Assembly (NCBI GenBank): GCA_028689495.1
Contig: JAQTWB010000010.1
Coordinates: 1 to 62,272, forward strand
Direction: 5' to 3'
Length of the DNA stretch: 62,272 nt
From: a bacterium
GTDB lineage: Bacteria > Bdellovibrionota_C > UBA2361 > SZUA-149 > JAQTWB01
The notes beneath the pieces are model-generated. The model worked only from the letters and a program-made list of their open reading frames with translations, was not told the origin of the DNA and ran no database searches. Positions 12,284 to 48,698 of the stretch are shown here, in pieces. The stretch's first letter is position 1. Each line of letters opens with the position of its first letter. A program made the position numbers and the translations under genes.

Positions 12284-12583
12284 ATGCACTTCATAATTAT
12301 TGCCCGTGACGGCACAGACGCAGAAGCGGCCAATCGTAGACAAAATGCCCGTGAAGCCCACCTGAAAAATATTGCCGACAATCGGCACCACGTGCTGATG
12401 GGAGTGGCAACTCTTGATGAACAAGGGCAAATGAACGGCTCCGTGCTTGTTGTCGATTTTTCCGATCGCGAAGCTCTCGACCGCTGGCTGGCCGAGGAGC
12501 CCTATGTTGTGCAACAGGTCTGGAAGGAGATCGAGATTGTTCCGGGCAAAGTTGGACCGGCGTTTTTGAAGCAGCTGGATTGA
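12284..12583 (+). CDS. YciI-like family protein.
   Basis: 99 aa, MHFIIIARDGTDAEAANRRQNAREAHL...GSVLVVDFSDREALDRWLAEEPYV. The size and pattern fit the YciI/dimeric alpha-beta-barrel family. Confidence 0.7.
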   Translation: MHFIIIARDGTDAEAANRRQNAREAHLKNIADNRHHVLMGVATLDEQGQMNGSVLVVDFSDREALDRWLAEEPYVVQQVWKEIEIVPGKVGPAFLKQLD

Positions 12584-12715: not shown

Positions 12716-13867
12716 TCACAAGTCTCCTTCACGAAACACATCCAGATAGGGCTTGAACACGAACATCCGGTTTCGACTTTGTCCTGTGGTTTCTTTTAAA
12801 ATATTGTGCCTGCACATCAAAGCAATGAGCTCGTTTGCCGGGCCATAATTGACCTGACAAACCTTGGCAGCTTGTTCGATATTGATGAAGGGGTGCTTGA
12901 ACAAATGTTGCAGAAGGACATAGCCTCTGGAGGAGCGCCTTCCAAACTGGGTCTGTATCAGATTCTCTATTTGTAGCTTCAGCTCAATGATCTTTTTTAA
13001 CGCATCGCAGGCATCCGTTGCGGTTTGCTCGACTCCGACCAGGAAGTACTTTATCCATTGCATCATATCGTTCTTTGTTCTTACAAAAGTAAGATTGTCG
13101 TAGTAGAGGTGCTTGTTCCTTTCGAAAAAGACCGACAGATACAGCAGCGGCTGCTCCAGCATTCCGACGCTCACCAGGAATAATGTTATGAGCAGTCTTC
13201 CAATTCGGCCATTGCCATCCAAAAACGGATGTATCGTTTCAAACTGATAGTGAGCTATTGCAATGCGAATCAGTTCCGGCAACTGCAATTCGTCGTTGTG
13301 GATGAACATTTCAAGATCAGTCATCAGATCCGGCACAAGGTCCGGATGAGGAGGAATAAATGTCGCATCGGCAAGACTGGCTCCACCGATCCAGTTCTGA
13401 CTGGTGCGGAACTCACCGGGCATTTTATGTTGACCTCTTACACTGTCCAGAAGAATGCGGTGCACCTGCTTCAGCAACCGCGATGAGATCGGCAGCGTCC
13501 GGAGTTCCTGGATGGCGAGATTAAGAGCCGTAATATAATTGTGAACCTCTTTCCAGTCGTTTCGTCGCTCGGGATTGATTTCCTCCTCAGGAAGTAGAGC
13601 TTCATCAATGTTTGTCTGCGTCCCTTCAATTCGGCTTGAAAGAACCGCCTCCTTTGTCACATGCAGCTGGATAAAAAGGTTGATATCCGGAACCAACCGG
13701 GCGCAGGCATTCAACTCACCCAACTTGACCGCACTTTTCTCAAGTAAATGATTGAGCTCCACCGACGACCATTCCCAGGAGCTGTTAATCCTGGTTGGGA
13801 CAAAATATTTATACTGGTACCCCTTTTCGTAACTTCCGGCGCTGTATTGGCTTAAATTTATTGACAT
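12716..13867 (-). CDS. Fic/DOC family protein (putative AMPylase) with a C-terminal wHTH.
   Basis: Canonical Fic motif HPFLDGNGRIGR, inside ...AHYQFETIHPFLDGNGRIGRLLITL. Confidence 0.85.
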   Translation of the reverse strand: MSINLSQYSAGSYEKGYQYKYFVPTRINSSWEWSSVELNHLLEKSAVKLGELNACARLVPDINLFIQLHVTKEAVLSSRIEGTQTNIDEALLPEEEINPERRNDWKEVHNYITALNLAIQELRTLPISSRLLKQVHRILLDSVRGQHKMPGEFRTSQNWIGGASLADATFIPPHPDLVPDLMTDLEMFIHNDELQLPELIRIAIAHYQFETIHPFLDGNGRIGRLLITLFLVSVGMLEQPLLYLSVFFERNKHLYYDNLTFVRTKNDMMQWIKYFLVGVEQTATDACDALKKIIELKLQIENLIQTQFGRRSSRGYVLLQHLFKHPFINIEQAAKVCQVNYGPANELIALMCRHNILKETTGQSRNRMFVFKPYLDVFREGDL

Positions 13868-14054: not shown

Positions 14055-14144
14055 GGTCAGACCGAACGTGGTGCAACAGGTCTGGAAGGAGATCGAGATT
14101 GTTCCGGGCAAGGTCGGGCCGGCATTCTTGAAACAGGCGAACTA
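14055..14144 (+). pseudogene. 3'-terminal stub of a second yciI-like gene (…VVQQVWKEIEIVPGKVGPAFLKQAN*).
   Basis: About 85% nt identity to 12506-12583, the 3' end of the intact yciI. There is no upstream coding continuation. Confidence 0.5.
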
Positions 14145-14151
14145 AGCCAAA

Positions 14152-14772
14152 CTACTCACCGACCATGCTCAATTGCTTTCCATCAAACTGCAAGACAGGC
14201 TTCCATGGCCCGCCAGTTGGCCCGACACTGATAAAGGATTTCTCGTAACTGCCGTTGTCGTATGTCTGATATGAGGTGCAGTCTTTGATATCCGCCGACT
14301 CCTCGGCGCTTACTTCAGGCCAGGCCGAGATTTCGGCATAGCTGCCATTTTTCTCCAGCCGATAATATTTATACTCCTGACAATTGGGCTCCTCCTTTGG
14401 GCAACCGTGCAGCATGAACACCAGACTATCCCCCGGCATCAGCCTTGGTGTCACGGAAAACCGCGAGGCATCATCGCGCCAGCGTGCGGGCGCCGCAATT
14501 GCTACAACCCGCTCCAACTTGCTGGTTTCAGCGGCATAAAGATAAATCTCGGCCTTCACATCACTCACCGATGGAATACCGCGACTCCAGCCAGTCATGT
14601 CACCAAGCAAGGGATAGTGGAGATTATAGCTCGTCAAACCAACGGCAATTTGAGCGCACTCCTTTCCGGCACTATCACCGCTGACCCTGACCGAGAGCTC
14701 CGCCGGACCTTTGCAGGCAATGAGGAAGAGCAGTAGCAGAGCCGTGAGCGGGGGGCGAAATGGGGAATTCAT
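14152..14772 (-). CDS. Hypothetical lipoprotein.
   Basis: Signal peptide plus lipobox: MNSPFRPPLTALLLLFLIAC|KG. Confidence 0.45.
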   Translation of the reverse strand: MNSPFRPPLTALLLLFLIACKGPAELSVRVSGDSAGKECAQIAVGLTSYNLHYPLLGDMTGWSRGIPSVSDVKAEIYLYAAETSKLERVVAIAAPARWRDDASRFSVTPRLMPGDSLVFMLHGCPKEEPNCQEYKYYRLEKNGSYAEISAWPEVSAEESADIKDCTSYQTYDNGSYEKSFISVGPTGGPWKPVLQFDGKQLSMVGE

Positions 14773-14904
14773 TCTCAGGTCGCTCCACTTGAAAGTCATG
14801 CGTGGTTGATATGCGTTTTACGGATGTATTTAAGTCTGTCATACCTGATATCGGCAAATGACTGCCAGCTGGAAATTTGGTGTGTGGGACCCGGCTCCAG
14901 TGTT

Positions 14905-15816
14905 TTACTCTTCGTTAAAATAATCTGTATCGACGGCCTTAAGTTGAAATGTCTTCCTAGTAGACACGCCAACACCAAAATCAATCATATATTGGGCAAG
15001 CTGTTCGCCATCGATAAGAACAATTTTACTATCAAGACCAGAGGCGAAATCTCGCGCGCCCTGACTGAAAGTTGAAGTTGTGATAAACACTCCTTTACGC
15101 GCTCTGACACCCTGGAGAGTACCAGCGAACTTTTGAATTTCCGGTCACTGAACTGACTGCTCCCAGCGCTTCGCCTGAATGTAAATTGTATCAAGGCCCA
15201 AACGATCTTCTTTAATGATTCCGTCAATGCCGCCATCGTTGGAGTAAGATGTCGCCTCGGCATTACCTTGCAGATCTCCGCCGTAACCCATGGCTACCAA
15301 TAGATCGACAACCATCTTCTCAAAGAATGCCGGTGAAGCGGACTTGACCTGTTCGAGGATTTCGTCAGCAAGCTGAGAATGTATCTGCTTATAGTAGTAA
15401 CTCAGCTGTTCATCTGGAGTCCGTTCGGACGGTGAGAGGATGGCTTGCCGAGAAACGGGTTCCTGTTCATTACTTTTGACCTTGAACTCGAGAAAATCTG
15501 AAAATCGCGAGAGCAACTCATTATCAATCCCCTCCGGCCCTTCCAACAACACCCCCTTACCCCGCGCGGTAATTTTTACCGTCCCGCGTCGTGGTGACTC
15601 CAACAACCCCGCTTTCTTCAGATAGGTTTTGGCCCAGCCAACCCTGTTGCGCATATAGGTTGACTGTCCACTTGGAAGGCGGCTCTTTCGCTCCTCCTCA
15701 TCCAGAGCAAAATGCACCGTCATCGCCTCTACGCAATCATTAAATGTGTATATCTCACCATTCTCAATATGTTGAAGAAGTGGCAGCATAATTGTTTGAT
15801 AATCAGGAATCGGCAT
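14905..15816 (-). pseudogene. mrr: mrr, type IV methyl-directed restriction endonuclease, interrupted by an in-frame TGA (15145-15147).
   Basis: The N-terminal Mrr_N region (MPIPDYQTIMLPLL...) and the catalytic region (GIDGIIKEDRLGLDTIYIQAKRW...) are in the same frame as the downstream PEIQKFAGTLQGVRARKGVFITTSTFSQGARDFA...IVLIDGEQLAQYMIDFGVGV. A single TGA sits where Mrr proteins have the Arg of the conserved G-R-PEIQ segment, consistent with CGA>TGA. Confidence 0.8.
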
Positions 15817-15952
15817 GCAGCAGGTTTCCGTTCTATGCTTGTATTGGGCGAATCGTTGTTGTCATTGTCTTTCCGGACAGTCGGGCAAGTAAGTATTTTA
15901 ATCAGAGTCAGTTTGGCGTCGATCAGCGATGAATGGATTTACATCTTTACCG

Positions 15953-17995
15953 TCAGTCAATAATTGCCTTAAGCAAAGCATCCCTTGCGTCAGAGTAAAA
16001 CTGAATATCGATCTTTGTTGCCATATCATCTGTTAAATCGATCAACTGGCGGCGACATGAGACCGGCATAAGTAACGCAGCCGCTCCTTTTTCAACTGCG
16101 ATTTCAGCAAGAGTAACCGGATTGTGCACGGGCTCAATTGAGCCCCCAAGATTTATTTCCCCAACAATTATCAGCCCACCTCGCACACTCTTTTTCAGTA
16201 GAGATGTACAAAGAGCGATTAATGCCGCTACTCCCAGTTTTGCACCGGCCTTGGAGGCATCAAATGCTCGCAGCTGTACTGTAAACTCATGTTGACGGGC
16301 ATCCTTGTCACCAACAAGTTGTGCCGAACGCGCGTAAAGGTTCTGCTCAGCATAGCCAAGACTCTCCCTGAATGCTGGCGGGACTGGTTTGTTGAGAATC
16401 TTAACCCCCGAGCCTCGGCCTTCATTTATCTCGATACGATAAAGTCCGGGATGATCGTCATTTCCCCCCGGGCTGATACTCCAGACCTGTCCTGGCTCAA
16501 GAGGGTCCCCGCCGACACAATTTTCGCTATTCAACTCGGGGGTGTTGACGAATTTTTCAACTCCATTGGCACCCATAACGTAACTAAAGTGGGTATTGCG
16601 AAACTCGGCGGCACCAATACGTTTTTGCTGTTCTTTAACCCGACGTCTTGACTCCATGGCGATACGAACTGCCCATTCGAGGTCATCCTCTGCAACATCC
16701 CCACCTCCAGGATAGAGAAGTTTTAGCAAACCACTGATTGTCTTGTTGACCGCAGTTGTATCCCGACCAGAAAGGGACCCCCCAAAGAAAACATGGTTCT
16801 GAAGGATACTAATGCGGCTCTGGCGGCGAAGCTGGCTCCAGCATTCGGATAGAAAGTCACTAACTAAACCAAAATGGTTGGTTAACAGCTCCTTGCTGAT
16901 TTTTGGCACATCCCAACCGGGCAAAAAGGCATGAATGCGATCCATGAATGCAGTATCATCTTTCATCTCCGGCGGCATTGGCCCGAACAAATGTCCGATG
17001 CGTTGCTGATGTTCCACATCGACATCGAAGTTACCAACCATCACGATACTGCCATCGGCTCGGATGCTTTCCTTGCCGCGGCTGAATTCGCCGGACTCCA
17101 TGTAGCCCTTCATGATGTTCACGCCGTCTTTCTGATCAAAAGAGATACCAGATACTTCATCAAAGCAGACTACATCGTATTGGCAGACCAATCCTCGCTG
17201 ACCAGTAGCGTTGTGGACAAACATCTGCGCAACTGTTGCTTTACCCCCAGAAATCAAGTGCGCGTACGGAGAGATTTGCTGGAATAGGTGACTTTTCCCT
17301 GTTCCCCGGGGTCCGAGTTCCACCAAATTGTAGTTACGCTCGACAAAAGGCACCATTCGCAACAACAGCGCATCGCGTTGTCGCTCGCTCAATCCGCCTG
17401 GTTCAATGCCGACAGACCGCAACAAAAATGTCTTCCACTGGTCAGTGGAGAACGACTTACGGGCCTCAGCTAACACATCAAGAACATCTCGCTTAGATAA
17501 CTGAATTTCCCGAAGGCCCGTGACTCCAAATGGTCGCCCCTTACTTTCCTGTGCAATAGTGACATCAAAGGTTAAAGTAATCTCGGCATAAAAACCGCCA
17601 GTCAACATACGCTCGTGCCGGTTAACCAATGCACCGCTTATACGAACTTCGTTTAAGCGCAGGCTAGGTAAAGTCGCGACATACTCCCCTTTATTGTCGA
17701 CACGAGCGGTAATACGGTCGATGATTTTCACCTCACCCGTTTCAAGCGCCCTGGCCTTAAAAAGCTCCTCCTCTCCCGCCTTGACCGTTCTGGATTTAAG
17801 TTGCCTCTCGACAATTTCAAGGCCCTCATTTATCTCATCCTGGTCTACGCTGGCGCAGTATCGGCCAAGTAAAAACTCAACGACGTAAGTCGGCACAGGG
17901 AACTGGCGGCTAAACGTCCGAACCAGATCCTTGCGAACCAGGTAGCCCTCTAAAGAGGATGCCGCTTTATTGTCGATTTGATCCATTTCAATCAT
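15953..17995 (-). CDS. brxL: BREX Lon-protease-like protein BrxL.
   Basis: 680 aa. The N-terminus (MIEMDQIDNKAASSLEGYLVRKDLVRTFSRQFPVPTYVVEFLLGRYCASVDQDEI) matches the characteristic BrxL start. It has an ATPase P-loop GPRGTGKSHLF and a Lon-like C-terminus. Its start overlaps the pglZ stop (ATGA). Confidence 0.85.
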   Translation of the reverse strand: MIEMDQIDNKAASSLEGYLVRKDLVRTFSRQFPVPTYVVEFLLGRYCASVDQDEINEGLEIVERQLKSRTVKAGEEELFKARALETGEVKIIDRITARVDNKGEYVATLPSLRLNEVRISGALVNRHERMLTGGFYAEITLTFDVTIAQESKGRPFGVTGLREIQLSKRDVLDVLAEARKSFSTDQWKTFLLRSVGIEPGGLSERQRDALLLRMVPFVERNYNLVELGPRGTGKSHLFQQISPYAHLISGGKATVAQMFVHNATGQRGLVCQYDVVCFDEVSGISFDQKDGVNIMKGYMESGEFSRGKESIRADGSIVMVGNFDVDVEHQQRIGHLFGPMPPEMKDDTAFMDRIHAFLPGWDVPKISKELLTNHFGLVSDFLSECWSQLRRQSRISILQNHVFFGGSLSGRDTTAVNKTISGLLKLLYPGGGDVAEDDLEWAVRIAMESRRRVKEQQKRIGAAEFRNTHFSYVMGANGVEKFVNTPELNSENCVGGDPLEPGQVWSISPGGNDDHPGLYRIEINEGRGSGVKILNKPVPPAFRESLGYAEQNLYARSAQLVGDKDARQHEFTVQLRAFDASKAGAKLGVAALIALCTSLLKKSVRGGLIIVGEINLGGSIEPVHNPVTLAEIAVEKGAAALLMPVSCRRQLIDLTDDMATKIDIQFYSDARDALLKAIID

Positions 17996-20337
17996 GTAAG
18001 ACCTCCACCAATTACTGTGGCGATTTGCGCAACCAGCGACCCACCACCATCGATCAGCACCACTGTTGCTTGCGCCCCCTCCATGTCCTCGTCTTCGACA
18101 ACAACGGAGGCCGTGCCGTTATCTTTAAGCGGTTTGCGGCCTAAGATCACACTGGACGATGAGTTACCAGCTTGGCGACGAATATCCAGTGATAAACCTG
18201 AAAAATTACCATCCACTGCCACAGTGCAGCGCAACCCCTTCCACACCACGTTGGTAAATCCGACAATTCCCGACACCGCGCTACGCGTGACCGTTAATTG
18301 CAGCGTCAGGCACTCCTGCAGGCTAAGGCCGCCATGGGTGTATTCTTCTCCGTTTTTGAAACAGCTCACACCATCAGCAAGCGCAAAATGCTGCTCCGGA
18401 TTCCAGTACCATGGATAAAGCCGCTCGTTAGAAACGGCCCCGGGTTTTAACGAGGCGCATCTGCCCCACTTGTTATCCGCTAAGGCACTGGGAAGATCGA
18501 TCTTGGGCAATCCACCCGGCAACAATAACCAACCGTGGTCGGTAACGACCCGAACACGTGCCCATCCAGCTTTTAAGAGCTCCGCGATCCGGTTCGCTAT
18601 CTCCAGAATCAGGGCATCAATGTTCCTGGCAAGTTTACACCCTCGGTTGTGACCCTCGTGGTCGATATCACCAAACTCGCACCAGGCCATGCCCTGGCCA
18701 TGGCCATCGGCAGAAGGTTTCAGAATTGACCACCCCGCATCGGTCAATAATTTCTTCAGGTGGTAGCCGCCCTTTAATGACTGGCCAGTGTCGACCACGG
18801 ACGGCTCAAAATCAGGACTTTCATCCTTTCCCCGAATTTTGTCTCGTACCGGAGTAACTGCAGCCTTACCCGTTGCCGTTACGCTCGGCAAGGCGGCCCA
18901 GATAGGCTCCTCGAAAATATCAAGCCCTCGCCCCTCCAAATACCCGACCAGTCGCTTCCCAGCATCAAAGCGGAGTCCATCAACAAACAGGATACAATCA
19001 CCAGTGCGGAATGTTTCCGTATTTGCAGTAAGGCAGGAGCCGCCAGGATAGGATGCACCATCGACCGACTTCTGAAGATAGCGAGCCGAATCCTCAATCC
19101 ACGGCAGGTAAACGCAACGGATAGCTGTCGTCACGGCCTCAAAGTCTGCAGGAATATCGACTTGAGCCAATGCCCGTATCAATCCGTCATCTACCAGCCA
19201 TCCTTGACTGCAATAACCAGCCGCGATTTCGTCAACCGAACCTGCGGCAAGTCCACTTTTCGTGTTCTCAGCAATAATCGCCAGATATTCCAATGTGCAG
19301 GCCAAGGGCGTAGCACCCAATTCGGCCCAGACTGAATTACGCCTTAACCCATGCTGGTGTTCCAGCTCGGTGATTTTAATCCTCGCGTCATGCGCAGGGA
19401 CATTGACCAGCGCCATTAGATCGCGGCGAAGACAATTCTCCTGATCATCACTCCATTGAGGCCAGCCATCTTTAGTTCCATCATCATTTAACCAAAATAG
19501 ATCCTTGCTAGGGGGCTGGCATTTTCTAATCTGTGAAGGGATATTAGGATAGCGCTTAGGCGCTTCGCAATAACGCTCCCAAACTGCCTGCCAGGGCCCC
19601 TCGTGGTTCGCTAGGCGGGTCGCACCAGCTAACAGACCGTCGTTGTCAGGGTTAAAAATCAATTGTGACTTGCAAACCTCAATGAAAGCTTTCCATTCGT
19701 TCTCACCACGGCTCGCTTGAAACGCATCCCCCCGATCAAGCCACTGCAGCAAATCTCGAATCGGGTCGCCACCTGTCAACAGGGTGTTGAAGTAATCTTT
19801 ATCCAGACGCTTGCCCCTCAATAACGAAACATCCTCATCGAGAAGGCGATACAGCGCGAGTTGCATGGCATTCTTGGCATCGTTATCCTGGGCCACGTCC
19901 AGCCCAAGACCACCTTGTTCGGATTTCAAATAGGCCAGGATTGTCCAATCCTTCGCATTTATTTGTGACCAGATCACGCCCCGGTATTGCAGTTCAGCAA
20001 GCGGCTTCAAGTTGTCCGGGCAACTTTCAATAGCCCGCAGGTCCTGTCGGCTGACGCCCGGCAGATAAAAAATCGGTGTCCGATCCTTGGGCAGAGAAAC
20101 ACCCTCGGCATAACCAGCCATCGCGCAGCGCAGCCAAATCGCCGGCCCAGTGCGCTTGTCTGGCGCATAGTCGCCGAGAATCAGCAGTTCAGGCAGCTCT
20201 GCCTGAAGAACGGGAATGACGGCTTCCCACTGTCGCTCGCGATCCGGCCACAGAATACATGCAGGTGCGACCTGAGCCTCCGGGTTGAACACTGCGGCAT
20301 CGCGAATGGATTTCAGGAGATGATCAAGCACTCTCAT
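17992..20337 (-). CDS. pglZ: BREX alkaline-phosphatase-superfamily protein PglZ (BrxZ).
   Basis: 781 aa. Lies between the pglX-side genes and brxL in canonical BREX type 1 order. Its first ~70 aa are duplicated at 23141 and 25197. Confidence 0.8.
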   Translation of the reverse strand: MRVLDHLLKSIRDAAVFNPEAQVAPACILWPDRERQWEAVIPVLQAELPELLILGDYAPDKRTGPAIWLRCAMAGYAEGVSLPKDRTPIFYLPGVSRQDLRAIESCPDNLKPLAELQYRGVIWSQINAKDWTILAYLKSEQGGLGLDVAQDNDAKNAMQLALYRLLDEDVSLLRGKRLDKDYFNTLLTGGDPIRDLLQWLDRGDAFQASRGENEWKAFIEVCKSQLIFNPDNDGLLAGATRLANHEGPWQAVWERYCEAPKRYPNIPSQIRKCQPPSKDLFWLNDDGTKDGWPQWSDDQENCLRRDLMALVNVPAHDARIKITELEHQHGLRRNSVWAELGATPLACTLEYLAIIAENTKSGLAAGSVDEIAAGYCSQGWLVDDGLIRALAQVDIPADFEAVTTAIRCVYLPWIEDSARYLQKSVDGASYPGGSCLTANTETFRTGDCILFVDGLRFDAGKRLVGYLEGRGLDIFEEPIWAALPSVTATGKAAVTPVRDKIRGKDESPDFEPSVVDTGQSLKGGYHLKKLLTDAGWSILKPSADGHGQGMAWCEFGDIDHEGHNRGCKLARNIDALILEIANRIAELLKAGWARVRVVTDHGWLLLPGGLPKIDLPSALADNKWGRCASLKPGAVSNERLYPWYWNPEQHFALADGVSCFKNGEEYTHGGLSLQECLTLQLTVTRSAVSGIVGFTNVVWKGLRCTVAVDGNFSGLSLDIRRQAGNSSSSVILGRKPLKDNGTASVVVEDEDMEGAQATVVLIDGGGSLVAQIATVIGGGLT

Positions 20338-20362
20338 GGGCGATACCCTCGCCGTAATCTAA

Positions 20363-21373
20363 TCATAAATACTTTTCTTTATTTTCCTGGCAATGCGTCC
20401 GGACAACATCAACCCAGCGTTCATACCAATGCCAAGACGTGCCAGCCACAAGGGAGCCGTAGCCCTTGACAGTATTTCTTGCGTCAAGAGATTGCCAGAG
20501 TTTTGTGTGATGATGCATTAAAAAGCCCGAATATCCCTCGGATCTCATCAAATCTACAATTTGCTTTGGCAGATACTTCTTCTTTTCGGTCTCTTTGATT
20601 ATTTTGTATTCCTTGTTTACCGCCTCCGCCAAAGCCGAATCGCTTTGTACAAACTCGATAACACGATCCGCCTGGCCTTTATGATTGGCTGTTTTAGGAA
20701 CGAACAATATGCGATAGGCGTAGCGCGGATTTGAGAATTCATCGTCCGACAATTCAGTATCAAAATCTTTAATGTAACCTTGTATGTTAACTGGTAACCC
20801 GGGATGCTCCTCGAGCAGTTCCTTTTGCTCGGTCGAGATCGTTGAAAACTGTAGACTGAACGAGAGATGCCTTTCTATTCCGTTGTTGACCCCGAACAAT
20901 TTTTTGATGTACTCGTTGTAATTCAGTCCGCAGGCCTGAAAACGAGCGCTCAATATATCGTCAATTCGGGTTGTCATTTGGTGTTCAATTTCGTGCCGCA
21001 ACCCTATCAGGAATCTCAGGTTATTGGCCGTATCCTTATCAATAGGACATTTAGCATCATTCAGACAACGCTCAAGCTCCCAGTACTTGTATGCGCCATG
21101 TTTGGTTCTATCGAATTCACGACGTTTACCGCTCTGGCGGCAATATCGATACTCAATTTTTTGATCACGGAAATAGGCGTGAAGCAGATATGTCCAGGCG
21201 ATAATCATCAGCACCACATAAGATTCAGACTTGAAGCCTATGTTAGGGTTGTTAAATATCTGTACTGCTGCAAGAGCAGCCTCTCGAGACTTCTTGAGAA
21301 GTTCGCTCTTGATAGCACCGACACGCCGAAGCCGTTTGCTCATTATGCCGTCTCCTGGACCTTCTGCTGCCAC
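20363..21373 (-). CDS. Hypothetical protein with a HEPN-like Rx4H motif (GLRHEIEH). Cargo module 3, gene b.
   Basis: 336 aa. Predicted helical N-terminal region (AVQIFNNPNIGF...) and RHEIEH matching the HEPN Rx4-6H pattern. No other recognised family. Confidence 0.4.
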   Translation of the reverse strand: MAAEGPGDGIMSKRLRRVGAIKSELLKKSREAALAAVQIFNNPNIGFKSESYVVLMIIAWTYLLHAYFRDQKIEYRYCRQSGKRREFDRTKHGAYKYWELERCLNDAKCPIDKDTANNLRFLIGLRHEIEHQMTTRIDDILSARFQACGLNYNEYIKKLFGVNNGIERHLSFSLQFSTISTEQKELLEEHPGLPVNIQGYIKDFDTELSDDEFSNPRYAYRILFVPKTANHKGQADRVIEFVQSDSALAEAVNKEYKIIKETEKKKYLPKQIVDLMRSEGYSGFLMHHHTKLWQSLDARNTVKGYGSLVAGTSWHWYERWVDVVRTHCQENKEKYL

Positions 21374-22635
21374 GCCAGCACTAGGGCTTTGCTACCCCTA
21401 GCCGCCTCTTGAATAATTGTTGCTAATGCTGCTGTTTCGGCTTTGTGCGTTCCGATATAACCGGAACGGATCAAACTGAGCATGTCGGCTTCTCGGAGAT
21501 AGGTTCCATCCAACGCTTTGTAACTGAGACGAACGCCACCCTTAGGGCCTCTGGCCTCAGGGGCAGCAAGGATCTGGTTCAGATGGTCGAGAGAGACAAG
21601 AAACGATTGATGCGTATCGTCTACGATCTTGCGCTTCACAAATTTGAAGAAAAATGGATTGCGGCTCAGCCTGTAGTCACTCAAAGAACCATCAAAGTCA
21701 GGAAGTCTCATGCGGGCAATTTCATCGCGCAACTGCTTGTCAGGACGAAACAACCAATCACGGTTTTCACTCTCTTGCTTGTCTTCCTCAAGCATCTTGT
21801 ACTGGAGCATAACAATATTGCCCCGGGTTTCGTTGATGTAGATGAGGTCAACGCCCAGCATCTGCTCCAAGGGCAATTTGTTAGCGGTGTAAATCACCAG
21901 CCGTTCGTCAGCCCTTTGAAAGACGGCTCGCCCGGTCACATCAGCGGAGATCGCATCGAATCCGGGGAAGCGCAATGAATCCGAATGCACTACGTTGTCC
22001 TCAAAGAGGTGAGCTCCGATAAGACCAAGACCAGATGATGCGCCCTTCTTGAGGGTAACCTGATCCGGTATGGCACTGCCCCGAATTCCAAAAGCTGCCA
22101 TTGCCGACTTAATGGCATCCTCCTGTGCCCAGAAGGTGTTCGTCACGCGCCTCAACCGTGGCAAAAGGGAAAGAGCTGTATCCAGGGCAGATTGATTGTC
22201 GGAATCCGCCGCCAGAAGTTCGACCAGACGAACGCTGAGTTTGGGTGAGAGGCTTGTAATCGCTCCTTGAGCAGGTAGTCGTTTGCCCAGCAAACGCTTC
22301 ATTCGCGAATCAGTGAGCAACGCCTCTATCGACTGAAGAGAATTGGGGTTCAAGGCCCGCAGTTTCTTAATAGTTAGACGAGATTCGAAGGTGCTCACCG
22401 CCGCTTTTTTAGTGGCAGTGGCCATATAGCACTTGGTTGAATCACCTTCCTGCATTTCCAGCAAACAAAGCGTTGGCAGCTTGATAGCCAGAAGTACAGA
22501 ATGTGGTTTTACCAAAGTAAGGAGCTCGAACCCATGCTGCAAATTCTGGAAGGATTCAGACATAGCCTCATCGAAGCGAATCAAGATCAGGGGTTTCTTC
22601 TGAACCCATTTTGCGATCTTGACTGCTGCACTCAT
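21343..22635 (-). CDS. Hypothetical protein. Cargo module 3, gene a.
   Basis: 430-aa ORF. Its ATG overlaps the stop of the preceding junction duplicate (ATGA). No confident domain. A weak D...E.K pattern (GVDLIYINETRGNIVMLQYK) is noted only. Confidence 0.4.
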   Translation of the reverse strand: MSAAVKIAKWVQKKPLILIRFDEAMSESFQNLQHGFELLTLVKPHSVLLAIKLPTLCLLEMQEGDSTKCYMATATKKAAVSTFESRLTIKKLRALNPNSLQSIEALLTDSRMKRLLGKRLPAQGAITSLSPKLSVRLVELLAADSDNQSALDTALSLLPRLRRVTNTFWAQEDAIKSAMAAFGIRGSAIPDQVTLKKGASSGLGLIGAHLFEDNVVHSDSLRFPGFDAISADVTGRAVFQRADERLVIYTANKLPLEQMLGVDLIYINETRGNIVMLQYKMLEEDKQESENRDWLFRPDKQLRDEIARMRLPDFDGSLSDYRLSRNPFFFKFVKRKIVDDTHQSFLVSLDHLNQILAAPEARGPKGGVRLSYKALDGTYLREADMLSLIRSGYIGTHKAETAALATIIQEAARGSKALVLAWQQKVQETA

Positions 22636-23141
22636 TCGGCGACCTCCCTTGCAGCGCGTTTTTCCTTCAAACTCGGGTGGTGGTCGTTGATGCGGTCGCC
22701 GTCAAAGACGTGATACCAGGGGGCGGATGCGACGTCCTTGACATAGCAGGCTCTGAGGAAAAATGAACGAAACCAAATAAGATTAAAAAGGTAGCCAGAG
22801 TTTCTAGCTCCGGCATTCGCAACGAACCCAACAAACCGCCGCCGTATCGTAGTGTAGCCAGACCAGGATGGTCTGGCTACCATCGCGCTCGGGCCGTAGG
22901 GGGTTATTGGATTCATCAGCTCAATTCGTGGGGATACCTCAATAGCGGGCCCCGTCCGCTTTTCCGGCGCATAGTCGCCGAGAACCAGCAGTTCCGGCAT
23001 CCCCGCCTGAAGAATGGGAATGACGGCTTCCCACTGTCGCTCACGATCCGACCACAGAATACATGCAGGTGCGACCTGAGCCTCCGGGTTGAAAACTGCG
23101 GCATCGCGAATCAATTTCAGGAGATGATCAAGTACTCTCAT
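22632..23141 (-). pseudogene. Junction duplicate 2. It contains the pglZ 5' end (~200 bp, ~90% identical to 20140-20337), a ~175-bp spacer with palindromic E-elements, and a copy of the pglX 3' end (…VKDVASAPWYHVFDGDRINDHH…).
   Basis: The first 72 aa are nearly identical to the PglZ N-terminus (MRVLDHLLK.IRDAAVFNPEAQVAPACILW.DRERQWEAVIP.LQA..PELL.LGDYAP.KRTGPAI) and then diverge. The 3' 60 bp match the last 60 bp of pglX. Almost identical to 24688-25197. Confidence 0.7.
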
Positions 23142-23144
23142 ACG

Positions 23145-23681
23145 TCACGTTTCCTGTGCACTGTCTATGAGGCCATATGTTGTGGCCAGTGAATCATTAA
23201 TAACAGCTACAGAGACTGGCGAAAGTCCCCAGGTCTTTATTGTCGATCGTAAGGCTTTTAAAAGAGCATCATGCAACGGTGGCAACCATGCATCCTTATG
23301 CCCGTTGATGACCAAAACAAACTTCGCATCCGCTTGTGACAAATCGAGTTTCTTAAATTCATCGGGTAATTCCGAGGCAGCTTGCGGATGCCGTCTAAGA
23401 ATTGCTGCCCATCCCAAAGAAAAAGCATTGACGAGTTTCTCTCGGATTTCGGCAATAAAATCATCAAAGTTCGGCTGAGTTTTAGGGTGGGGCGTGCTGG
23501 ATTTAGCCTCAACAATCCAAATAACTGATTTACCGTTACTTACTTGCAACAGCAGAAATTCCGCCATCTGGACATGATCTTTAATTGCGGCATAGCAATT
23601 ACTCTTTTCTACACGAAAACAATAGCCATCCGGGTAAGGACCAAATGTCATATCAGATTCGATAATAGGTTGGGTCGTCAT
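23145..23681 (-). CDS. Hypothetical 178-aa protein. Cargo module 2, gene b (partner of the ATPase).
   Basis: The ORF overlaps the ATPase gene end by 4 nt. No recognisable motif. Confidence 0.4.
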   Translation of the reverse strand: MTTQPIIESDMTFGPYPDGYCFRVEKSNCYAAIKDHVQMAEFLLLQVSNGKSVIWIVEAKSSTPHPKTQPNFDDFIAEIREKLVNAFSLGWAAILRRHPQAASELPDEFKKLDLSQADAKFVLVINGHKDAWLPPLHDALLKALRSTIKTWGLSPVSVAVINDSLATTYGLIDSAQET

Positions 23682-24691
23682 TTGAGCGTCAACCCCACTT
23701 CTTCTTTATACAGACGAATCGACTCATCGATTATCGGGTTATCAGGCATTCCGCTCTTCAGATCAGAGGTCTCCCATTTATTAGTGGAGGATGAGATAAC
23801 AGGAATGGACACTCCCTTTTCCTGGGCCAGAAGATAGAGCTTTTTCACCACAAAATACGAGTGGCTTGCGAGAAAAAACTGAATGCCGCGCTCCGCCAGT
23901 ACGGCGATAATATCTAGCAACTCGGAGATCGCTGTCGGGTGGAGCGCCGACTCCGGTTCATCAATAAAAACAATCGAGTGGATATCCAGGTAACGGTTAC
24001 TCAGCAAGGTATCCAGAATGGCAATCTTCTTGATGCCTTCCGCTGTTACACCAATAGGAAACTTCTGATTACCCTTTTTAAACTGCCAGCGTCCTGAAAC
24101 TTCATCGTATTCAACTTTGCCGCCAAACATATCTTCCAACCGTTTTCGTGAATCGGAAAATTCCTTAAAATTTTTACCACGCTGTGGCAACTGTCTTAAC
24201 GCGCGAGTTAGATCGAGATACGTATCATCAAAGCCAAATAATTTATCCTGCTCGCGAGATTTAAGAATAATCTGATGCAGCGACAGCACCTCTTTGGCCG
24301 GCAAAAAAATAGAATTGCTGCTTCTAGGTGGGATGTGATTTTCCAGAGATGCGATCTGTTTAGTTGTGTCTTTTCTGAATTTATAGCTGAATCCGTTGCG
24401 CTCAAATTCCATCTCAAAGGACAATGATCCGTCAGCACCTTTTGTCACAAGCTCGCCAATTTTGTCGGCTTGAAAGGTCCAGTATAACTTGTCGGCAAGA
24501 ATCTCTGACGCGGACTTGAGCTCATCACCACGTTTATACTCCTCTATTGTTCGCATTGCGGAATAGAGAGCTTTTAAAAGAAACGTCTTACCTGTACTGT
24601 TGCCTCCTAAAACCAAGTTAATTTTACCTAACTGATTCCAGTGAAGGTCGGTCAAAGGTCCGAAGTTTTTGAGTCCTATCTTGTTAATCAT
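23678..24691 (-). CDS. ABC-type (AAA_21/SMC-like) ATPase. Cargo module 2, gene a.
   Basis: Walker A GGNSTGKTFLLKALY; Walker B/D-loop IVFIDEPESALHP; H-loop LASHS. 337 aa, the compact size of defence-associated minimal ABC ATPases. Its ATG overlaps the upstream stop (ATGA). Confidence 0.7.
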   Translation of the reverse strand: MINKIGLKNFGPLTDLHWNQLGKINLVLGGNSTGKTFLLKALYSAMRTIEEYKRGDELKSASEILADKLYWTFQADKIGELVTKGADGSLSFEMEFERNGFSYKFRKDTTKQIASLENHIPPRSSNSIFLPAKEVLSLHQIILKSREQDKLFGFDDTYLDLTRALRQLPQRGKNFKEFSDSRKRLEDMFGGKVEYDEVSGRWQFKKGNQKFPIGVTAEGIKKIAILDTLLSNRYLDIHSIVFIDEPESALHPTAISELLDIIAVLAERGIQFFLASHSYFVVKKLYLLAQEKGVSIPVISSSTNKWETSDLKSGMPDNPIIDESIRLYKEEVGLTLK

Positions 24692-25197
24692 AACTTCTCT
24701 CCCAAGCTATTCTTTTTATCTTCTAATTTCAGGTGGTGGTCGTTGATGCGGTCGCCGTCAAAGACGTGATACCAGGGTGCAGATTCCACGTCCTTGACAT
24801 AGCAGGCTCTGAGGAAAAATGAACGAAACCAAATAAGATTAAAAAGGTAGCCAGAGTTTCTAGCTCCGGCATTCGCAACGAACCCAACAAACCGCCGCCG
24901 TATCGTAGTGTAGCCAGACCAGGATGGTCTGGCTACCATCGCGCTCGGGCCGTAGGGGGTTATTGGATTCATCAGCTCAATTCGTGGGGATACCTCAATA
25001 GCGGGCCCCGTCCGCTTTTCCGGCGCATAGTCGCCGAGAACCAGCAGTTCCGGCATCCCCGCCTGAAGAATGGGAATGACGGCTTCCCACTGTCGCTCAC
25101 GATCCGACCACAGAATACATGCAGGTGCGACCTGAGCCTCCGGGTTGAAAACTGCGGCATCGCGAACCGCTTTCAGGAGATGATCAAGAACCCTCAT
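24688..25197 (-). pseudogene. Junction duplicate 1: pglZ 5' end, spacer with E-elements, and pglX 3'-end copy (…VKDVESAPWYHVFDGDRINDHH…).
   Basis: As for 22632-23141; the two duplicates are ~98% identical to each other. Confidence 0.7.
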
Positions 25198-25231
25198 GCG
25201 TCACCCGTCTTTGTATTGTTGAAAGTCTCAA

Positions 25232-28200
25232 TCATTCGCCCTCCTGTTCGTTTTCGGCAATAACTCGCCTAGCCTCTCGATCGTATCCCTCCGCCAAACC
25301 TCTTAAGATTGCTGCAAATCGCTGAAACCCTGCATTCTCAACTTTCTCGGCTTTAATTCGGAACTGTTCTGCGAATTCTCTCTCCGGCTTCCCGGTTGGG
25401 TCAACCCAACGAACACCGCGTGAGTTGTATATCCCCGTCCTGAAACCGGCGCGCATATTATCAGCTTCACGGTCATTTAATGCGTCAGCGACAGTGCGGT
25501 GTATCCATAATCCGTCTGGGTGCGGTGGGGTATGAATCAATACTTCGCCAATATTGCTGAGAGCAACTTCCAGGTGGCCGGACTCCGTACAGACTTCTTT
25601 TACCCTCTTGAGCCAGTCTATAAAACTCTCTTCGCTGAACGTTCCATCCTTCTGTGTTCCCGGCGGTGTCTTCCACTGATGCAGTAGCCGCCAGGCGTTT
25701 GCTGCTATCGCCTTTTTCTCCTCAGTGGGGTCTGTCAATGGCGGATCTTCATTTTTGGAACGGTAAATCAATCGAATGACCTCACAAAAGAACTCGGGGT
25801 CATTCGCCAGTCTGCTTTCAAGGAGTTGGGGCGCCGCTCCTCTATGATGGTCGAGCAAGGAAACATACGCCCACTCAACTCTAAAGAGGTCTTCTTCATT
25901 GACTGAAGGCTCTGCCTGAAGAAACTGGATCAATTCGACAATGTCGTGCTCGTCCATAACATAGCGCGGCTCATTGGAGGACAGCGCAGCAAGCAACGCT
26001 CTGACACATTGACTACTATCGATAGGTTGCTTGGCATGGCGCATCTTGTCCAGGCAGCCTATCGCCGCGTGTGGTCTGCCGTATTCAAGGAGCTTCTCAA
26101 CTGCCATCTCAAGATCACCATCAGCCTGATAGGCATTCGCGCCAGTGCGAGTCCAGTATTCTCTCTCTTTCGCCTGAAGCCATTCAGAGGCGCGATCCCA
26201 TGCTCCCCGAATAAACGGCAAACATGCCAGGAACTGTCCTACTTGTTCTGGTGACCAGTCGGATTTATCGATATCGTCGCACCACTCCCAGCCTTTGAGG
26301 AGATGACTCCGCCAGATAAAACCACTCACCAACGCCGTGTGCTTATCGTCCGCGGAATCCAGGAAGTGGGGCAAAAAGGTCCGCTCAATGATTGAGTCGG
26401 CAATAGCGCCAAGCGCGTGCCCTACCTGCCTGGGAGCAGAAACTGATTCGGCAAATCGAATCAAACCCTCCGCACAATCTTGCTGAAAAATTTCCGAAAT
26501 GGCCGTTTCACGTCGGGTATCGAGTTTCTTGCGCTGTTCCTCCCAATCGCCATCTTCTTCATAAAGATCGAAATCGCGATCCGTAAAAAGATGCTGATAT
26601 AAGTTGAACGGGTTGGTGGGGGCGAGTAGCTCAGCAACCTGTTCAATGCGGGTAATCAGCTCATCTGACAATGCCCATTTTGCATCGGAGAACCGGCGGT
26701 GTTTGTTTGTGAATTTTGCAAGATGGTCCCAAATCAAAAGTCGCTGCTCTTCGGGAAGCGCAGCGATGGGTAGGGAAGCAAGAACATCGAGTAGTTGATC
26801 AAAAGCTGATTTAGGCAGGTGATCAAAATGATCAATCAATGCAGAAAGCCTAGCGGTATCTTCACCAGCGGTCTCCACCGCAAGCTCCGCGTAAAAAGTT
26901 GCCTGCTGCCAATATTCTTGCGTCGTCACATCCCCCCAATCATCGGGGATTATCTGACGCCAAATTGGTTTGTGCGACCCAGAGGAAATCTGGCGCTGGC
27001 CGGGTAAAAGCTTATTAATCAAGTTCCATGCTATATCAGGATTCTCACGAAGAATTGTCTGCACTGCGGCTTGGCGCTTTTCAACCCCTGCCAGCGTTTG
27101 CGGAAACCAAGGAAGCAATATAGCGGTGAGCGAATTGAATGGTCGATTGTCCCAATTACCCCCCGGATCATGGCTGGCAAGGTCGGCAAGCGCAACACAA
27201 ACTCGAACGAGATATTGTTCATCCCATGCCAGCCCCTCTAACGCCCAAAGGAGGCCGGTCAGATAATTCCTTCCAAAAATCCCCCCATCCTCCTCATTGA
27301 AGAGGTCTACAAATGGACAAGAACTTTGCTTGAGCGCAAACTCGACCGCATCGAGAAATTGCGTTGGCGCCACTTCGGCCAAGATGGGTAATAAATCGTT
27401 GACGCTTCCCCATCTCTTCCAATCCGCCTCCTCGAAAAGCTCTCTTATAAACGAGGCGCAGATCGTCTCTGTCTTATCGGGCGAACACTGCTTACAAACC
27501 TCGGGGTAACTCCCAATGATGGCTAACCCTTCAGCAATACCCTTTCGCAGGTCCTTGGAGCTTTTTAATACTTTGCCATAAATGCTTGCAGCACTTCTAT
27601 CGTCAGCCGGCAGCTCAAATATGGGATCACTCTCCGTCATGATCCTCAGAGCAATGCTCCTAAAGGTATCGAGATCATTATCCAAAATACGCGACCCCAG
27701 CATCCTCCAAAGCTCAACTCGATTACCAACTTTCCAGATGCCGTTTTTGAGAGACAACGGACTATCAGGGGTGTGCAATATCTCCCGTGCCTTCTTGAGC
27801 CAGGCGTCATAACTGACACCGAGCAGTTCGGTTATTGCCTCACGGTCGCATTCACTCTTTTCGTTCCAGCTACCAATCAGGATTGCTTGTGTCAGACAGG
27901 TGGCGTCTGGGTGATGAGTCCACACACTGGAAATCTCTATTGCTTTTGGATTGGCAGTTATGTTTATATTGTTGACTGCCGCTTTAACCACAATAAGGCA
28001 AATTTCCGCCGTATATCGATCCGGATTAAAGTCCTCTTTCATTTGTTGATATGGATGAATGTAATTACGGAAATTTCTTAAGGTCTGACCGAACTGCTTA
28101 ACATCTTGCCTTACAATTCCAAGATCGTGTGCGACATTAATGAACTGCTCGAGACTCCAGTCTTTAAAGTCTTTGCTCTTTCCTCTCTGATCTTTCGGTG

Positions 28201-48036: not shown

Positions 48037-48698
48037 TACCATTTCAAAACCGGTCTTACCGATCAACGGAGTCTTTAAACACGATATAGTAATCTTCGGA
48101 ACGGTCATGAGTCTGAAATTTCAGCTCATGACCCGCTTCCATACTCTGCTTAAATTAAGGTTCCATATTGCAACTGGTCAGACGTTTCTGGTTACGGCAT
48201 CACAGACAAACCACTTTGAAATACACTTCCGATTGAGTTGGGCAAATCAAAAACCTATCCTTCTATTTTTGGGGTAAAGGCACATTGCATTTTTCGCACC
48301 GATGTTGCCTGGCTCTGACCCGGAAATTGCACGTAAGTTCACAGCTAAAGCTGGTAATTGTCTGTTATTGCTGTTCCGAGTTTTCCGACAGTCTGTAATT
48401 GACGACTCTGCTGTCAGGAGATATTGAAAAAGTCCCCTTTCCTTAGTGTAGAAGTATATCTTGCCGCATTCATCGCTGCGCTTTCAGTAACTCAAGTCTG
48501 CCCACTTGAAGCCTGAACCTGCAATACCGATGAATGCGGCACGACAGTGATAAGGTTACAAGATTATGTCTGCAACAACATGCCATCCACCTGAAGTAAT
48601 GCTCCGACAGGCGCTTCTCCAGGCGGGTGGCACGTTGTTCAGGTCGATATTCTCTGAACGCTTACTGCCCGTTTTTCAACTTCAAACGGAGCATAATC

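What the first reader, a model, noticed from the sequence alone, without database searches (positions are those of the whole stretch)
14905..15816. mrr is inactivated by a single in-frame TGA at a conserved Arg position
Mrr_N and the catalytic region are otherwise intact and in one frame. The stop (15145-15147) sits where Mrr proteins have the Arg of the G-R-PEIQ segment, consistent with a CGA>TGA point mutation. Mrr attacks methylated DNA, and the island carries its own methyltransferases (pglX and the 3328-4329 MTase), so loss of mrr could reflect self-toxicity. It could also be a sequencing error.
Basis: partly seen in the sequence, partly recalled or inferred. Interest (0 to 1): 0.55.

Follow-up and report, generated by a model that had tools for sequence, protein, structure and literature searches.

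The report
Nonsense-inactivated Mrr restriction gene beside BREX
A gene for an Mrr-type enzyme that cuts methylated DNA, located next to a BREX phage-defence locus in an uncultured bacterium, is broken by one premature stop codon at an invariant arginine; it is an ordinary, recent pseudogene, and nothing here shows why it was lost.

Summary
On the minus strand, 15816..14905 is a 303-codon Mrr gene (Mrr_N plus Mrr_cat; 37% identical to E. coli EcoKMrr). Its only lesion is a TGA at codon 224 (15145-15147). That codon aligns with an Arg found in 119/119 full-length homologs and with EcoKMrr R229.

TGA is a true stop in this organism. It ends 22 of 39 long ORFs, and RF2 is present with its canonical CTT-TGA-C frameshift. 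No SECIS-like fold follows the stop.

A second assembly (Logan, run SRR22315507) reproduces the TGA in a 3,036-bp contig identical to the window. A consensus error is therefore unlikely, but population polymorphism was not tested.

The 223-aa product keeps the DNA-binding domain and the D...QxK motif. It loses a helix and two core strands of the nuclease fold. The sequence after the stop is as well conserved as the sequence before it, so the event is recent.

[quoted passage not shown] Intact Mrr-type nucleases sit beside closely related BREX loci. The 3328-4329 "MTase" shows no sign of being a DNA methyltransferase.

This is an ordinary pseudogene of low interest.

The parts
14905..15816 (-). 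mrr pseudogene: 303 sense codons, with codon 224 now TGA, plus a terminal TAA
   Evidence: Translation; Pfam Mrr_N and Mrr_cat; 37% identity to EcoKMrr over the full length, E 1e-57; best intact homologs 55-60% identical
15145..15147 (-). Premature TGA (codon 224) at the invariant Arg; the changed base is + strand 15147 (a now; g if ancestral CGA)
   Evidence: Arg in 119/119 protein homologs and 78/80 genomic homologs; equals EcoKMrr R229
15148..15816 (-). Truncated 223-aa ORF that would be translated: Mrr_N winged helix, linker and the first part of the nuclease domain
   Evidence: ORF list; PADLOC mREase_IV profile positions 1-234 of 317, E 2.6e-49; the exact product is also called on Logan contig L001
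15547..15801 (-). Mrr_N DNA-binding domain (aa 6-90), intact
   Evidence: Pfam PF14338, E 8.5e-29; coordinates
14986..15345 (-). Mrr_cat PD-(D/E)XK nuclease domain (aa 158-277), interrupted by the stop
   Evidence: Pfam PF04471, E 4.6e-36, one stretch across the stop; Foldseek best PDB hits for a homolog model are MspJI and AspBHI
15169..15225 (-). Catalytic motif D198 ... Q214-A-K216, upstream of the stop and retained
   Evidence: Invariant columns; align with EcoKMrr D203, Q219 and K221; D203A is the published catalytic mutant (PMC5435990)
14905..15144 (-). Orphaned 3' part (codons 225-303 plus stop) encoding helix 225-237, strands about 242-247 and 265-269, and two helices of the nuclease fold; not degraded
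   Evidence: AlphaFold2 model of the 60%-identical P0003; 3/40 conserved-column mismatches downstream versus 6/76 upstream
15953..17995 (-). Context: brxL, last gene of the BREX-1 operon, 136 bp upstream of mrr on the same strand
   Evidence: Pfam BrxL_N and BrxL_ATPase; PADLOC BrxL E 2.5e-296; NCBI name BrxL, MDD2942052.1
28471..32760 (-). Context: pglX, the BREX adenine methyltransferase invoked by the self-toxicity idea. The ORF is uninterrupted, with motif I DPCCGSGHF and motif IV NVPY
   Evidence: PADLOC PglX 1723.8 bits; NCBIfam and PDB PglX/BrxX matches; NVPY conserved in 15/15 related PglX

Best explanation
This is a recently inactivated Type IV (modification-dependent) restriction endonuclease gene of the Mrr family, at the brxL end of a BREX-1 defence island. 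The host is an uncultured, probably Bdellovibrionota-like, bacterium.

A single base substitution turned the invariant Arg-224 codon into TGA. The most likely change is the transition CGA to TGA. Translation therefore ends after 223 residues.

The product keeps the N-terminal winged-helix domain and the D...QxK catalytic residues. It lacks the helix that begins at the Arg, two core beta-strands and two further helices of the PD-(D/E)XK fold. It is therefore expected to be nuclease-dead.

Shown: the lesion, its position, the integrity of everything else, and that UGA is a stop here. Inferred: loss of activity, recency, and the ancestral codon. The cause of the loss is unknown. The default is ordinary mutational turnover of a dispensable defence gene.
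For: There is a single in-frame TGA in an otherwise full-length Mrr. The stop lies at an Arg invariant in 119/119 homologs and 78/80 genomic homologs, of which 13 use CGA and 9 use AGA.

UGA is a genuine stop in this organism. It ends 22 of 39 long ORFs, none of which has an internal TGA. prfB (RF2) is present with SPF and GGQ motifs and the canonical CTT TGA C +1 frameshift site. There is no SECIS-like structure (z = 0.05).

The same TGA appears in an independently built Logan contig identical over 3,036 bp.

In the AlphaFold2 model of a 60%-identical homolog (pLDDT 85), the Arg sits at the N-terminus of helix 225-237. The truncation removes that helix, strands 242-247 and 265-269, and two helices. 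The fold matches MspJI and AspBHI.

There is no excess decay after the stop: 3/40 versus 6/76 conserved-column mismatches.

NCBI protein accessions skip the gene. Fic is MDD2942050 and BrxL is MDD2942052, leaving one number for the intervening 215-aa ORF. This is consistent with mrr being treated as a pseudogene (inference).

Another defence-gene remnant lies on the same contig: a PDC-S01/DUF4143 fragment containing only the C-terminal half, at 46779-47441.
Against: Reads could not be inspected, so allele frequency in the metagenomic population is unknown. The Logan contig is probably from the same run as the MAG, because SRR22315507 also holds this organism's exact AlaRS.

No close relative (above 60% identity) with an intact copy exists in the 5.8-billion-protein collection, the GTDB genomes or the JGI metagenomes. 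The ancestral codon is therefore inferred, not observed.

The perfect preservation of the downstream part is also what an error or a very low-frequency allele would give.

The stop context is UGA-C. From my own knowledge of E. coli (Poole, Brown and Tate 1995), this is the leakiest context, so some read-through product with a non-Arg residue is possible.
Confidence: 0.8

Rival explanations
1. The nonsense mutation was positively selected because this Mrr attacked the host's own DNA once it was methylated by the adjacent BREX PglX or another resident MTase. It explains the cause and is compatible with the pseudogene reading.
For: EcoKMrr is genotoxic when a Type III Mod is present. Type III Mod is an adenine MTase that methylates one strand of an asymmetric 5-6 bp site. 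The two loci counter-select each other and are anti-correlated across genomes (PMC3152355). PglX is the same kind of MTase (BREX methylation of asymmetric GGTAAG, PMC6326788). pglX here has an uninterrupted ORF with family-typical motifs. mrr lies 136 bp downstream of brxL on the same strand with no predicted terminator between them.
Against: Intact Mrr-type nucleases coexist with BREX. L084, L085 and L092 carry a 350-aa Mrr_cat nuclease immediately after a BrxL that is 87% identical to this one. L032 has an intact 53%-identical Mrr beside BrxC- and PglX-like genes. Salmonella LT2 has mrr2 next to brxL (PMC9009780). E. coli HS BREX transforms K-12 BW25113 as efficiently as the empty vector, and that strain's listed genotype has no mrr lesion (PMC6326788). 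Neither the specificity of this Mrr nor that of this PglX is known.
Confidence: 0.15
2. The TGA is a sequencing or consensus error, or a minority allele fixed by the assembler. The organism's real gene would then be intact.
For: The sequence comes from a MAG. Logan contigs for this organism in SRR22315507 are short (3.0 and 13.6 kb), which suggests modest coverage. The downstream part shows no decay at all.
Against: Two different assemblies give the same base within 3,036 identical bases. A substitution error that happens to create a stop at one specific codon is improbable at consensus level. NCBI appears not to have issued a protein for the gene.
Confidence: 0.1
3. UGA is recoded and a full-length, functional Mrr is made. 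Possible routes are selenocysteine, a reassigned genetic code or efficient programmed read-through.
For: The stop is in the UGA-C context, the weakest terminator context in E. coli (own knowledge). It is the same context as the RF2 frameshift site in this contig.
Against: TGA ends 22 of 39 long ORFs. RF2 is encoded and uses the UGA-dependent autoregulatory frameshift. The RNA after the stop folds no better than shuffled sequence (z = 0.05). The position is an invariant Arg, and neither Sec, Trp nor Gly would replace it. The AlaRS affinities are to Bdellovibrionota/Oligoflexia. From my own knowledge these use the standard genetic code; this was not checked here.
Confidence: 0.02
4. The truncated 223-aa protein has been retained for a new role, for example as a methyl-DNA-binding protein or as a modulator of another Mrr or BREX.
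For: Mrr_N and the linker are intact. EcoKMrr function depends on its oligomeric state (PMC5435990; PMC12707154), so a fragment could in principle interfere.
Against: No other truncated homolog was seen among the 120 best hits; all are 294-331 aa except this one. No second Mrr is present in the window. The intact downstream part argues for recency, not for a settled new gene.
Confidence: 0.04

Closest known systems
EcoKMrr (E. coli K-12 mrr, b4351), the archetypal Type IV methyl-directed restriction enzyme
   Same: Same length (303 versus 304 aa) and same architecture, Mrr_N winged helix plus Mrr_cat PD-QxK. 37% identity over the whole protein, E 1e-57. D198, Q214 and K216 align with D203, Q219 and K221, and the stop aligns with R229. 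Both sit in defence islands next to a modification-based system (hsdRMS in K-12, BREX here).
   Different: The window copy has a nonsense codon at the Arg and cannot make the last third of the nuclease domain. It is only 37% identical, so its specificity is unknown. The host is a distant uncultured lineage.
mrr2 adjacent to brxL of the StySA BREX system in Salmonella enterica LT2 (PMC9009780)
   Same: An Mrr-family gene lies immediately beyond brxL at the edge of a Type 1 BREX cluster.
   Different: In LT2 the gene is treated as a normal gene. The paper places a strong TSS cluster upstream of it, oriented toward the BREX cluster. Here mrr is co-directional with brxL and carries a stop codon. 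Sequence similarity to mrr2 was not tested.
[quoted passage not shown] 2011, PMC3152355)
   Same: It provides the known mechanism by which a resident adenine MTase that methylates one strand of an asymmetric site makes Mrr genotoxic and selects for loss of one partner. PglX is that kind of MTase.
   Different: In that study the counter-selected gene was usually mod. The partner was a Type III Mod, not PglX. No evidence here links this Mrr to this PglX.
Mrr_cat nucleases downstream of brxL in related metagenomic BREX loci (L084, L085, L092)
   Same: They occupy the same position, directly after a BrxL that is 87% identical, and have the same Mrr_cat nuclease domain.
   Different: They are 350 aa with a different N-terminal region and only 31-33% identical over the catalytic domain. 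They are intact. They have Ala rather than Arg at the equivalent position ('NIQAPVVQQVRG').
MspJI / AspBHI modification-dependent endonucleases (PDB 4F0P, 4OC8)
   Same: They are the best structural matches to the model of the 60%-identical homolog, through the Mrr-like catalytic domain.
   Different: Their N-terminal domain is SRA-like, not winged-helix (PMC12707154). TM-scores are low for the whole chain.

Membership tests
Mrr family, Type IV restriction endonuclease (EcoKMrr-like) | N-terminal Mrr_N winged-helix domain | tested here: met
   Pfam PF14338, aa 6-90, E 8.5e-29, above the gathering score
Mrr family, Type IV restriction endonuclease (EcoKMrr-like) | C-terminal Mrr_cat PD-(D/E)XK domain with the D...QxK catalytic residues | tested here: met
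   At sequence level, reading through the stop: PF04471 aa 158-277, E 4.6e-36. D198, Q214 and K216 are invariant and align with EcoKMrr D203, Q219 and K221.
Mrr family, Type IV restriction endonuclease (EcoKMrr-like) | Full-length homology to the archetype EcoKMrr | tested here: met
   BLASTP 37% identity over residues 1-300, E 1e-57; PADLOC mREase_IV E 2.6e-49 for the N-terminal fragment
Mrr family, Type IV restriction endonuclease (EcoKMrr-like) | Uninterrupted ORF able to encode the complete nuclease fold (needed for a functional member) | tested here: not met
   TGA at codon 224. The truncation removes one helix, two strands and two further helices of the fold. It is a member by descent and a pseudogene by state.
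Mrr family, Type IV restriction endonuclease (EcoKMrr-like) | Cleavage dependent on m6A or m5C modification | not testable with these tools
   Requires in vivo restriction or SOS assays with the repaired gene
BREX type 1 (genomic context) | brxA, brxB, brxC, pglX, pglZ and brxL in one cluster | tested here: met
   PADLOC matches: BrxA 1.8e-107 and PglZ E=0; BrxC E=0, BrxB 1.5e-80, PglX E=0 and BrxL 2.5e-296. NCBI names are BrxL and 'PglZ type B'. mrr is not one of the six core genes.
Conserved BREX accessory (is Mrr a regular partner of this BREX?) | Recurrent linkage of an Mrr-type gene with brxL or BREX in relatives | tested here: not met
   3 of 52 BrxL loci with at least 1 kb downstream carry an Mrr_cat gene. 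1 of 80 Mrr-homolog loci has BREX genes within 10 kb. The linkage is occasional, not defining.
Selenoprotein or recoded UGA | SECIS hairpin just 3' of the UGA, or UGA not used as a stop in the genome | tested here: not met
   Fold z = 0.05. TGA ends 22 of 39 ORFs. RF2 is present with the CTT TGA C frameshift.
   Only Methyltransf_11, _25 and _23 generic class-I SAM MTase hits. There is no NCBIfam hit. The motif IV sequence itself was not searched for in this ORF. The ORF sits between uvrA (28-3192) and a racemase gene.

The most novel reading that the evidence does not exclude
The stop codon is the scar of a conflict between two defence systems in one island. On this reading, methylation by the BREX PglX (one strand, asymmetric site, m6A) elicited this Mrr, just as Type III Mod elicits EcoKMrr, and cells survived by killing mrr. 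That would make BREX a second natural class of Mrr trigger.
Probability: 0.12. Interest if true: 0.45.

Novelty: new member of a known kind. Interest (0 to 1): 0.12.

Why it matters
The practical value is mainly for annotation. The Mrr of this defence island should be counted as non-functional in any inventory of this genome's defence systems. The two fragments called by gene finders (223 aa and 61 aa) are one broken gene. If the loss was driven by the neighbouring BREX methyltransferase, it would extend the known Mrr-versus-methyltransferase antagonism to BREX. Nothing here demonstrates that, and several counter-examples of coexistence were found.

Tried and rejected
- Megablast of 14700-16000 against all complete E. 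coli genomes found no match, so this is not an enterobacterial allele.
- A PDB sequence search with the repaired Mrr found no solved relative at E <= 1e-3.
- I looked for close relatives with an intact codon. The 5.8-billion-protein collection gave only the identical truncated product, and the next best hit was 60% identical. GTDB species genomes gave at most 57%. An exact-flank pattern with NNN at the codon found 0 hits in JGI metagenomes. The ancestral codon could therefore not be observed.
- A related species contig (L082, SRR22388173, 82-92% DNA identity over window 41968-62272) ends before the BREX/mrr region and says nothing about mrr.
I modelled the 60%-identical P0003 instead.
- Selenocysteine and an alternative genetic code were rejected.
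- I suspected that pglX might itself be damaged, because motif IV reads NVPY instead of NPPY. This was rejected: NVPY is conserved in 15/15 related PglX.
- A paper search for the run and protein accessions found nothing.
- No tRNA gene or att-like clue lies near mrr.

Full report
**What is there.** The minus strand from 15816 to 14905 reads as 304 codons in one frame. It has a single internal stop, TGA at codon 224 (+ strand 'tca' at 15145-15147), and a terminal TAA. An ORF finder therefore splits the gene into a 223-aa ORF (15145..15816) and a spurious 61-aa GTG-started ORF (14905..15090).

With the stop masked, Pfam finds Mrr_N (aa 6-90, E 8.5e-29) and Mrr_cat (aa 158-277, E 4.6e-36). The Mrr_cat match is one stretch running straight across the stop. 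PADLOC calls the N-terminal fragment a Type IV methyl-directed restriction enzyme, covering profile positions 1-234 of 317.

The protein is 37% identical over its whole length to E. coli K-12 EcoKMrr (E 1e-57). D198, Q214 and K216 align with the EcoKMrr residues D203, Q219 and K221. The stop aligns with R229 in '...VGRPELQAF'. D203A is the published catalytic mutant (PMC5435990).

**Is the stop at a conserved Arg?** Yes. Among the 120 best database homologs, the column is Arg in all 119 sequences that cover it. It is followed by the almost invariant PEIQKFAG. In 80 genomic homolog loci the aligned codon is Arg in 78: CGT 17, CGC 15, CGA 13, CGG 12, AGG 12, AGA 9. Only CGA (a transition) and AGA (a transversion) are one step from TGA. 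CGA is a normal codon in this contig, at 173 of 1122 Arg codons.

**Is UGA really a stop here?** The window is a complete 62,272-bp contig of an NCBI MAG labelled only '[bacterium]' (locus tags PHC51_, proteins MDD29420xx). Its AlaRS is closest (59-62%) to Bdellovibrionota/Oligoflexia MAG proteins.

Because the lineage is uncultured, I checked the genetic code directly:
- TGA terminates 22 of the 39 long ORFs, none of which contains an internal TGA.
- The contig encodes RF2 (SPF and GGQ motifs) with the classical autoregulatory +1 frameshift site, 'GGGAGG...TAT CTT TGA C'. That site only makes sense if UGA is read by RF2.
- The RNA 3' of the mrr stop folds no better than shuffled sequence (z = 0.05), so there is no SECIS.

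Recoding is excluded for practical purposes.

**Is it an error?** Reads cannot be inspected here. However, the exact 223-aa product is also called on a Logan contig assembled independently from run SRR22315507. That contig is 100% identical to window 14082-17117 over 3,036 bases, including the TGA. The same run carries this organism's exact AlaRS on a 13.6-kb contig, so it is probably the read set from which the MAG was built.

This makes a consensus or polishing error unlikely. It does not show whether the population is polymorphic. NCBI protein accessions jump from Fic (MDD2942050) to BrxL (MDD2942052), leaving one number for the 215-aa ORF in between. mrr therefore apparently received no protein, as expected for a gene flagged as a pseudogene (inference).

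**What the truncation does.** An AlphaFold2 model of the 60%-identical full-length homolog P0003 (mean pLDDT 85) shows the nuclease domain as helix 163-176, strands 190-192, 198-203 (Asp) and 211-217 (QAK), helix 225-237, strand 242-247, helix 253-261, strand 265-269 and helix 271-280. Its best PDB matches are the Mrr-like enzymes MspJI and AspBHI.

The Arg is the first residue of helix 225-237. Stopping there leaves the catalytic residues in place. It deletes the second helix and the fourth strand of the minimal alpha-beta-beta-beta-alpha-beta core, plus a further strand and two helices. Loss of nuclease activity is therefore the expected consequence (inference).

**How old is the lesion?** At columns conserved in at least 90% of homologs, the window sequence departs from consensus at 6 of 76 positions before the stop and 3 of 40 after it. 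All invariant residues after the stop are retained. There is no second lesion. The mutation is either very recent or not fixed.

**Relatives.** Apart from the identical truncated product, the nearest proteins in a 5.8-billion-sequence collection are 55-60% identical and come from many phyla. GTDB species genomes give at most 57%. An exact-flank search of JGI metagenomes gave nothing. 'Compare mrr in related strains' therefore cannot be done with public data. A related species contig (L082) stops short of the island.

**Context.** mrr lies 136 bp downstream of brxL on the same strand. No terminator-like site lies between them, and only a weak promoter-like match was found.

The island comprises, in order along the + strand:
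- SoFic (12716-13867)
- a 215-aa lipoprotein-like ORF
- mrr
- a complete BREX-1 set, brxL, pglZ, pglX, brxC, brxB and brxA
- a GmrSD_N/HEC-05 protein (39818-41527)

pglX has an uninterrupted ORF. Its motif IV reads NVPY rather than NPPY, but NVPY is conserved in all 15 related PglX I could examine, so it is not a defect.

**The self-toxicity interpretation.** The idea has a solid precedent. EcoKMrr is genotoxic in cells expressing Type III Mod enzymes. Those are adenine MTases that methylate one strand of an asymmetric site. The two loci counter-select each other and are anti-correlated in genomes (PMC3152355). PglX modifies DNA in the same manner (GGTAAG in E. coli HS; PMC6326788).

The evidence available here argues against any general incompatibility:
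- Among 52 metagenomic loci with a BrxL 79-88% identical to this one and at least 1 kb of downstream sequence, three carry an intact 350-aa Mrr_cat nuclease immediately after brxL. These are L084, L085 and L092, which are among the closest relatives at 87%.
- One of 80 loci with an intact Mrr homolog has BrxC- and PglX-like genes next to it (L032).
- Salmonella LT2 has mrr2 beside the brxL of StySA (PMC9009780).
- The E. coli HS BREX cluster transforms K-12 BW25113 as efficiently as the empty vector and methylates its genome. That strain's listed genotype has no mrr lesion (PMC6326788).

It sits between uvrA and a racemase gene, about 11 kb away. There is no reason to regard it as a DNA methyltransferase.

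I therefore rate selected loss through PglX conflict at roughly 0.12-0.15. Ordinary decay of a dispensable defence gene is the default. The contig holds at least one other defence-gene remnant: a PDC-S01/DUF4143 protein reduced to its C-terminal half at 46779-47441.

**Verdict.** 'Inactivated by a point nonsense mutation at an invariant Arg' is well supported (about 0.8), with a residual 0.1 for an error or minority allele. The proposed cause is unsupported, and one of its premises is wrong.

The object is a dead member of a well-known family, Mrr, in a well-known setting: a Type IV enzyme at the edge of a BREX island. Interest is low.

More unusual things were seen nearby and are listed under Noticed in passing. 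They are a triplicated pglX/pglZ junction flanking three stacked cargo cassettes, and an in-frame RAYT-like domain with REP-like hairpins inside pglX.

Noticed in passing
window 20137-28575 (between pglZ 17992-20337 and pglX 28471-32760): Three cargo cassettes are stacked between pglX and pglZ, each bounded by a copy of the 'pglX 3' end + pglZ 5' end' junction. The pglZ 5' end (20137-20337) recurs at 22941-23141 (91%) and 24997-25197 (90%). The pglX 3' end (28465-28575) recurs at 22629-22739 and 24685-24795. The 169-aa ORFs 22632-23141 and 24688-25197 are PglZ N-terminal remnants (the first also a PglX C-terminal remnant). The cassettes are a 1079-aa protein with no Pfam, PADLOC or NCBIfam hit (25232-28471), HEC-02 A/B (23145-24691), and PDC-S19/DUF3644 plus a 430-aa unknown (20363-22635). 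The layout looks like serial homologous recombination between BREX loci carrying different cargo at this hotspot.
   Followed up: partly
window 28471-32760 (pglX), insert about 31117-31935; L134 84-782: PglX (1429 aa) has an in-frame insertion of about 275 aa relative to Salmonella PglX 8C45 and to the 1125-position PADLOC profile. The insert is a RAYT / Y1-transposase-like domain (NCBIfam REP_Tyr_transpos E 4e-17; HUH motif 'NHVHVIV'). It is flanked by REP-like hairpins (GCCAGACC...GGTCTGGC) that are translated in frame. More copies lie at 29092-29115, 30183-30209 and in both junction copies. A 51%-identical PglX in metagenome locus L134 carries the same domain in frame, with HUH conserved, the putative Tyr replaced by Phe, and its own in-frame repeats. 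Other relatives (L133, L140, L142) lack it.
   Followed up: partly
window 54909-56019 (-): This is prfB (RF2) with the canonical programmed +1 frameshift: a 25-codon ORF ending 'TAT CTT TGA C' preceded by GGGAGG, followed by the main frame carrying SPF and GGQ motifs.
   Followed up: yes
window 46779-47441 (+), with 46057-46566: The DUF4143 / PDC-S01 protein matches only profile positions 204-410 of 422, and no N-terminal ATPase part is found upstream. It looks like another defence-gene remnant. It lies in a segment of about 6.9 kb (43620-50528) that is absent from the related contig L082.
   Followed up: partly
window 12509-12570 and 14071-14132: A direct repeat of about 62 bp (92% identical) flanks the SoFic gene (12716-13867). 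The Logan contig L001 ends inside the right-hand copy.
   Followed up: no
window 39818-41527 (-): A 569-aa GmrSD_N (DUF262) / HEC-05 protein sits just beyond brxA. It is a second candidate nuclease, of the GmrSD restriction-enzyme N-terminal domain family, on the opposite flank of BREX from the dead mrr, and its ORF is uninterrupted. A related species contig (L082 source, 30 kb) ends inside its homolog.
   Followed up: no
L084 8043-9101 region, L085 8043-9101, L092 6290-7342: In the closest BREX relatives (BrxL 87% identical), brxL is followed directly, overlapping or 6 bp later, by an intact 350-aa protein with a different, uncharacterised N-terminal region (about 200 residues) and an Mrr_cat domain. 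In L085 and L092 a large ATPase-like gene follows. This is a different Mrr-type accessory in the same slot.
   Followed up: partly
window 28-3192 (+) and 3328-4329 (+): ORF 28-3192 is uvrA-like (1054 aa; TIGR00630 1108 bits). The neighbouring 333-aa methyltransferase is a generic Methyltransf_11 protein with no NCBIfam match.
   Followed up: yes
window 32770-34371 (-): A 533-aa Schlafen AlbA_2 + HATPase_c_4 protein is inserted between brxC and pglX inside the BREX operon. Its function here is unknown.
   Followed up: no
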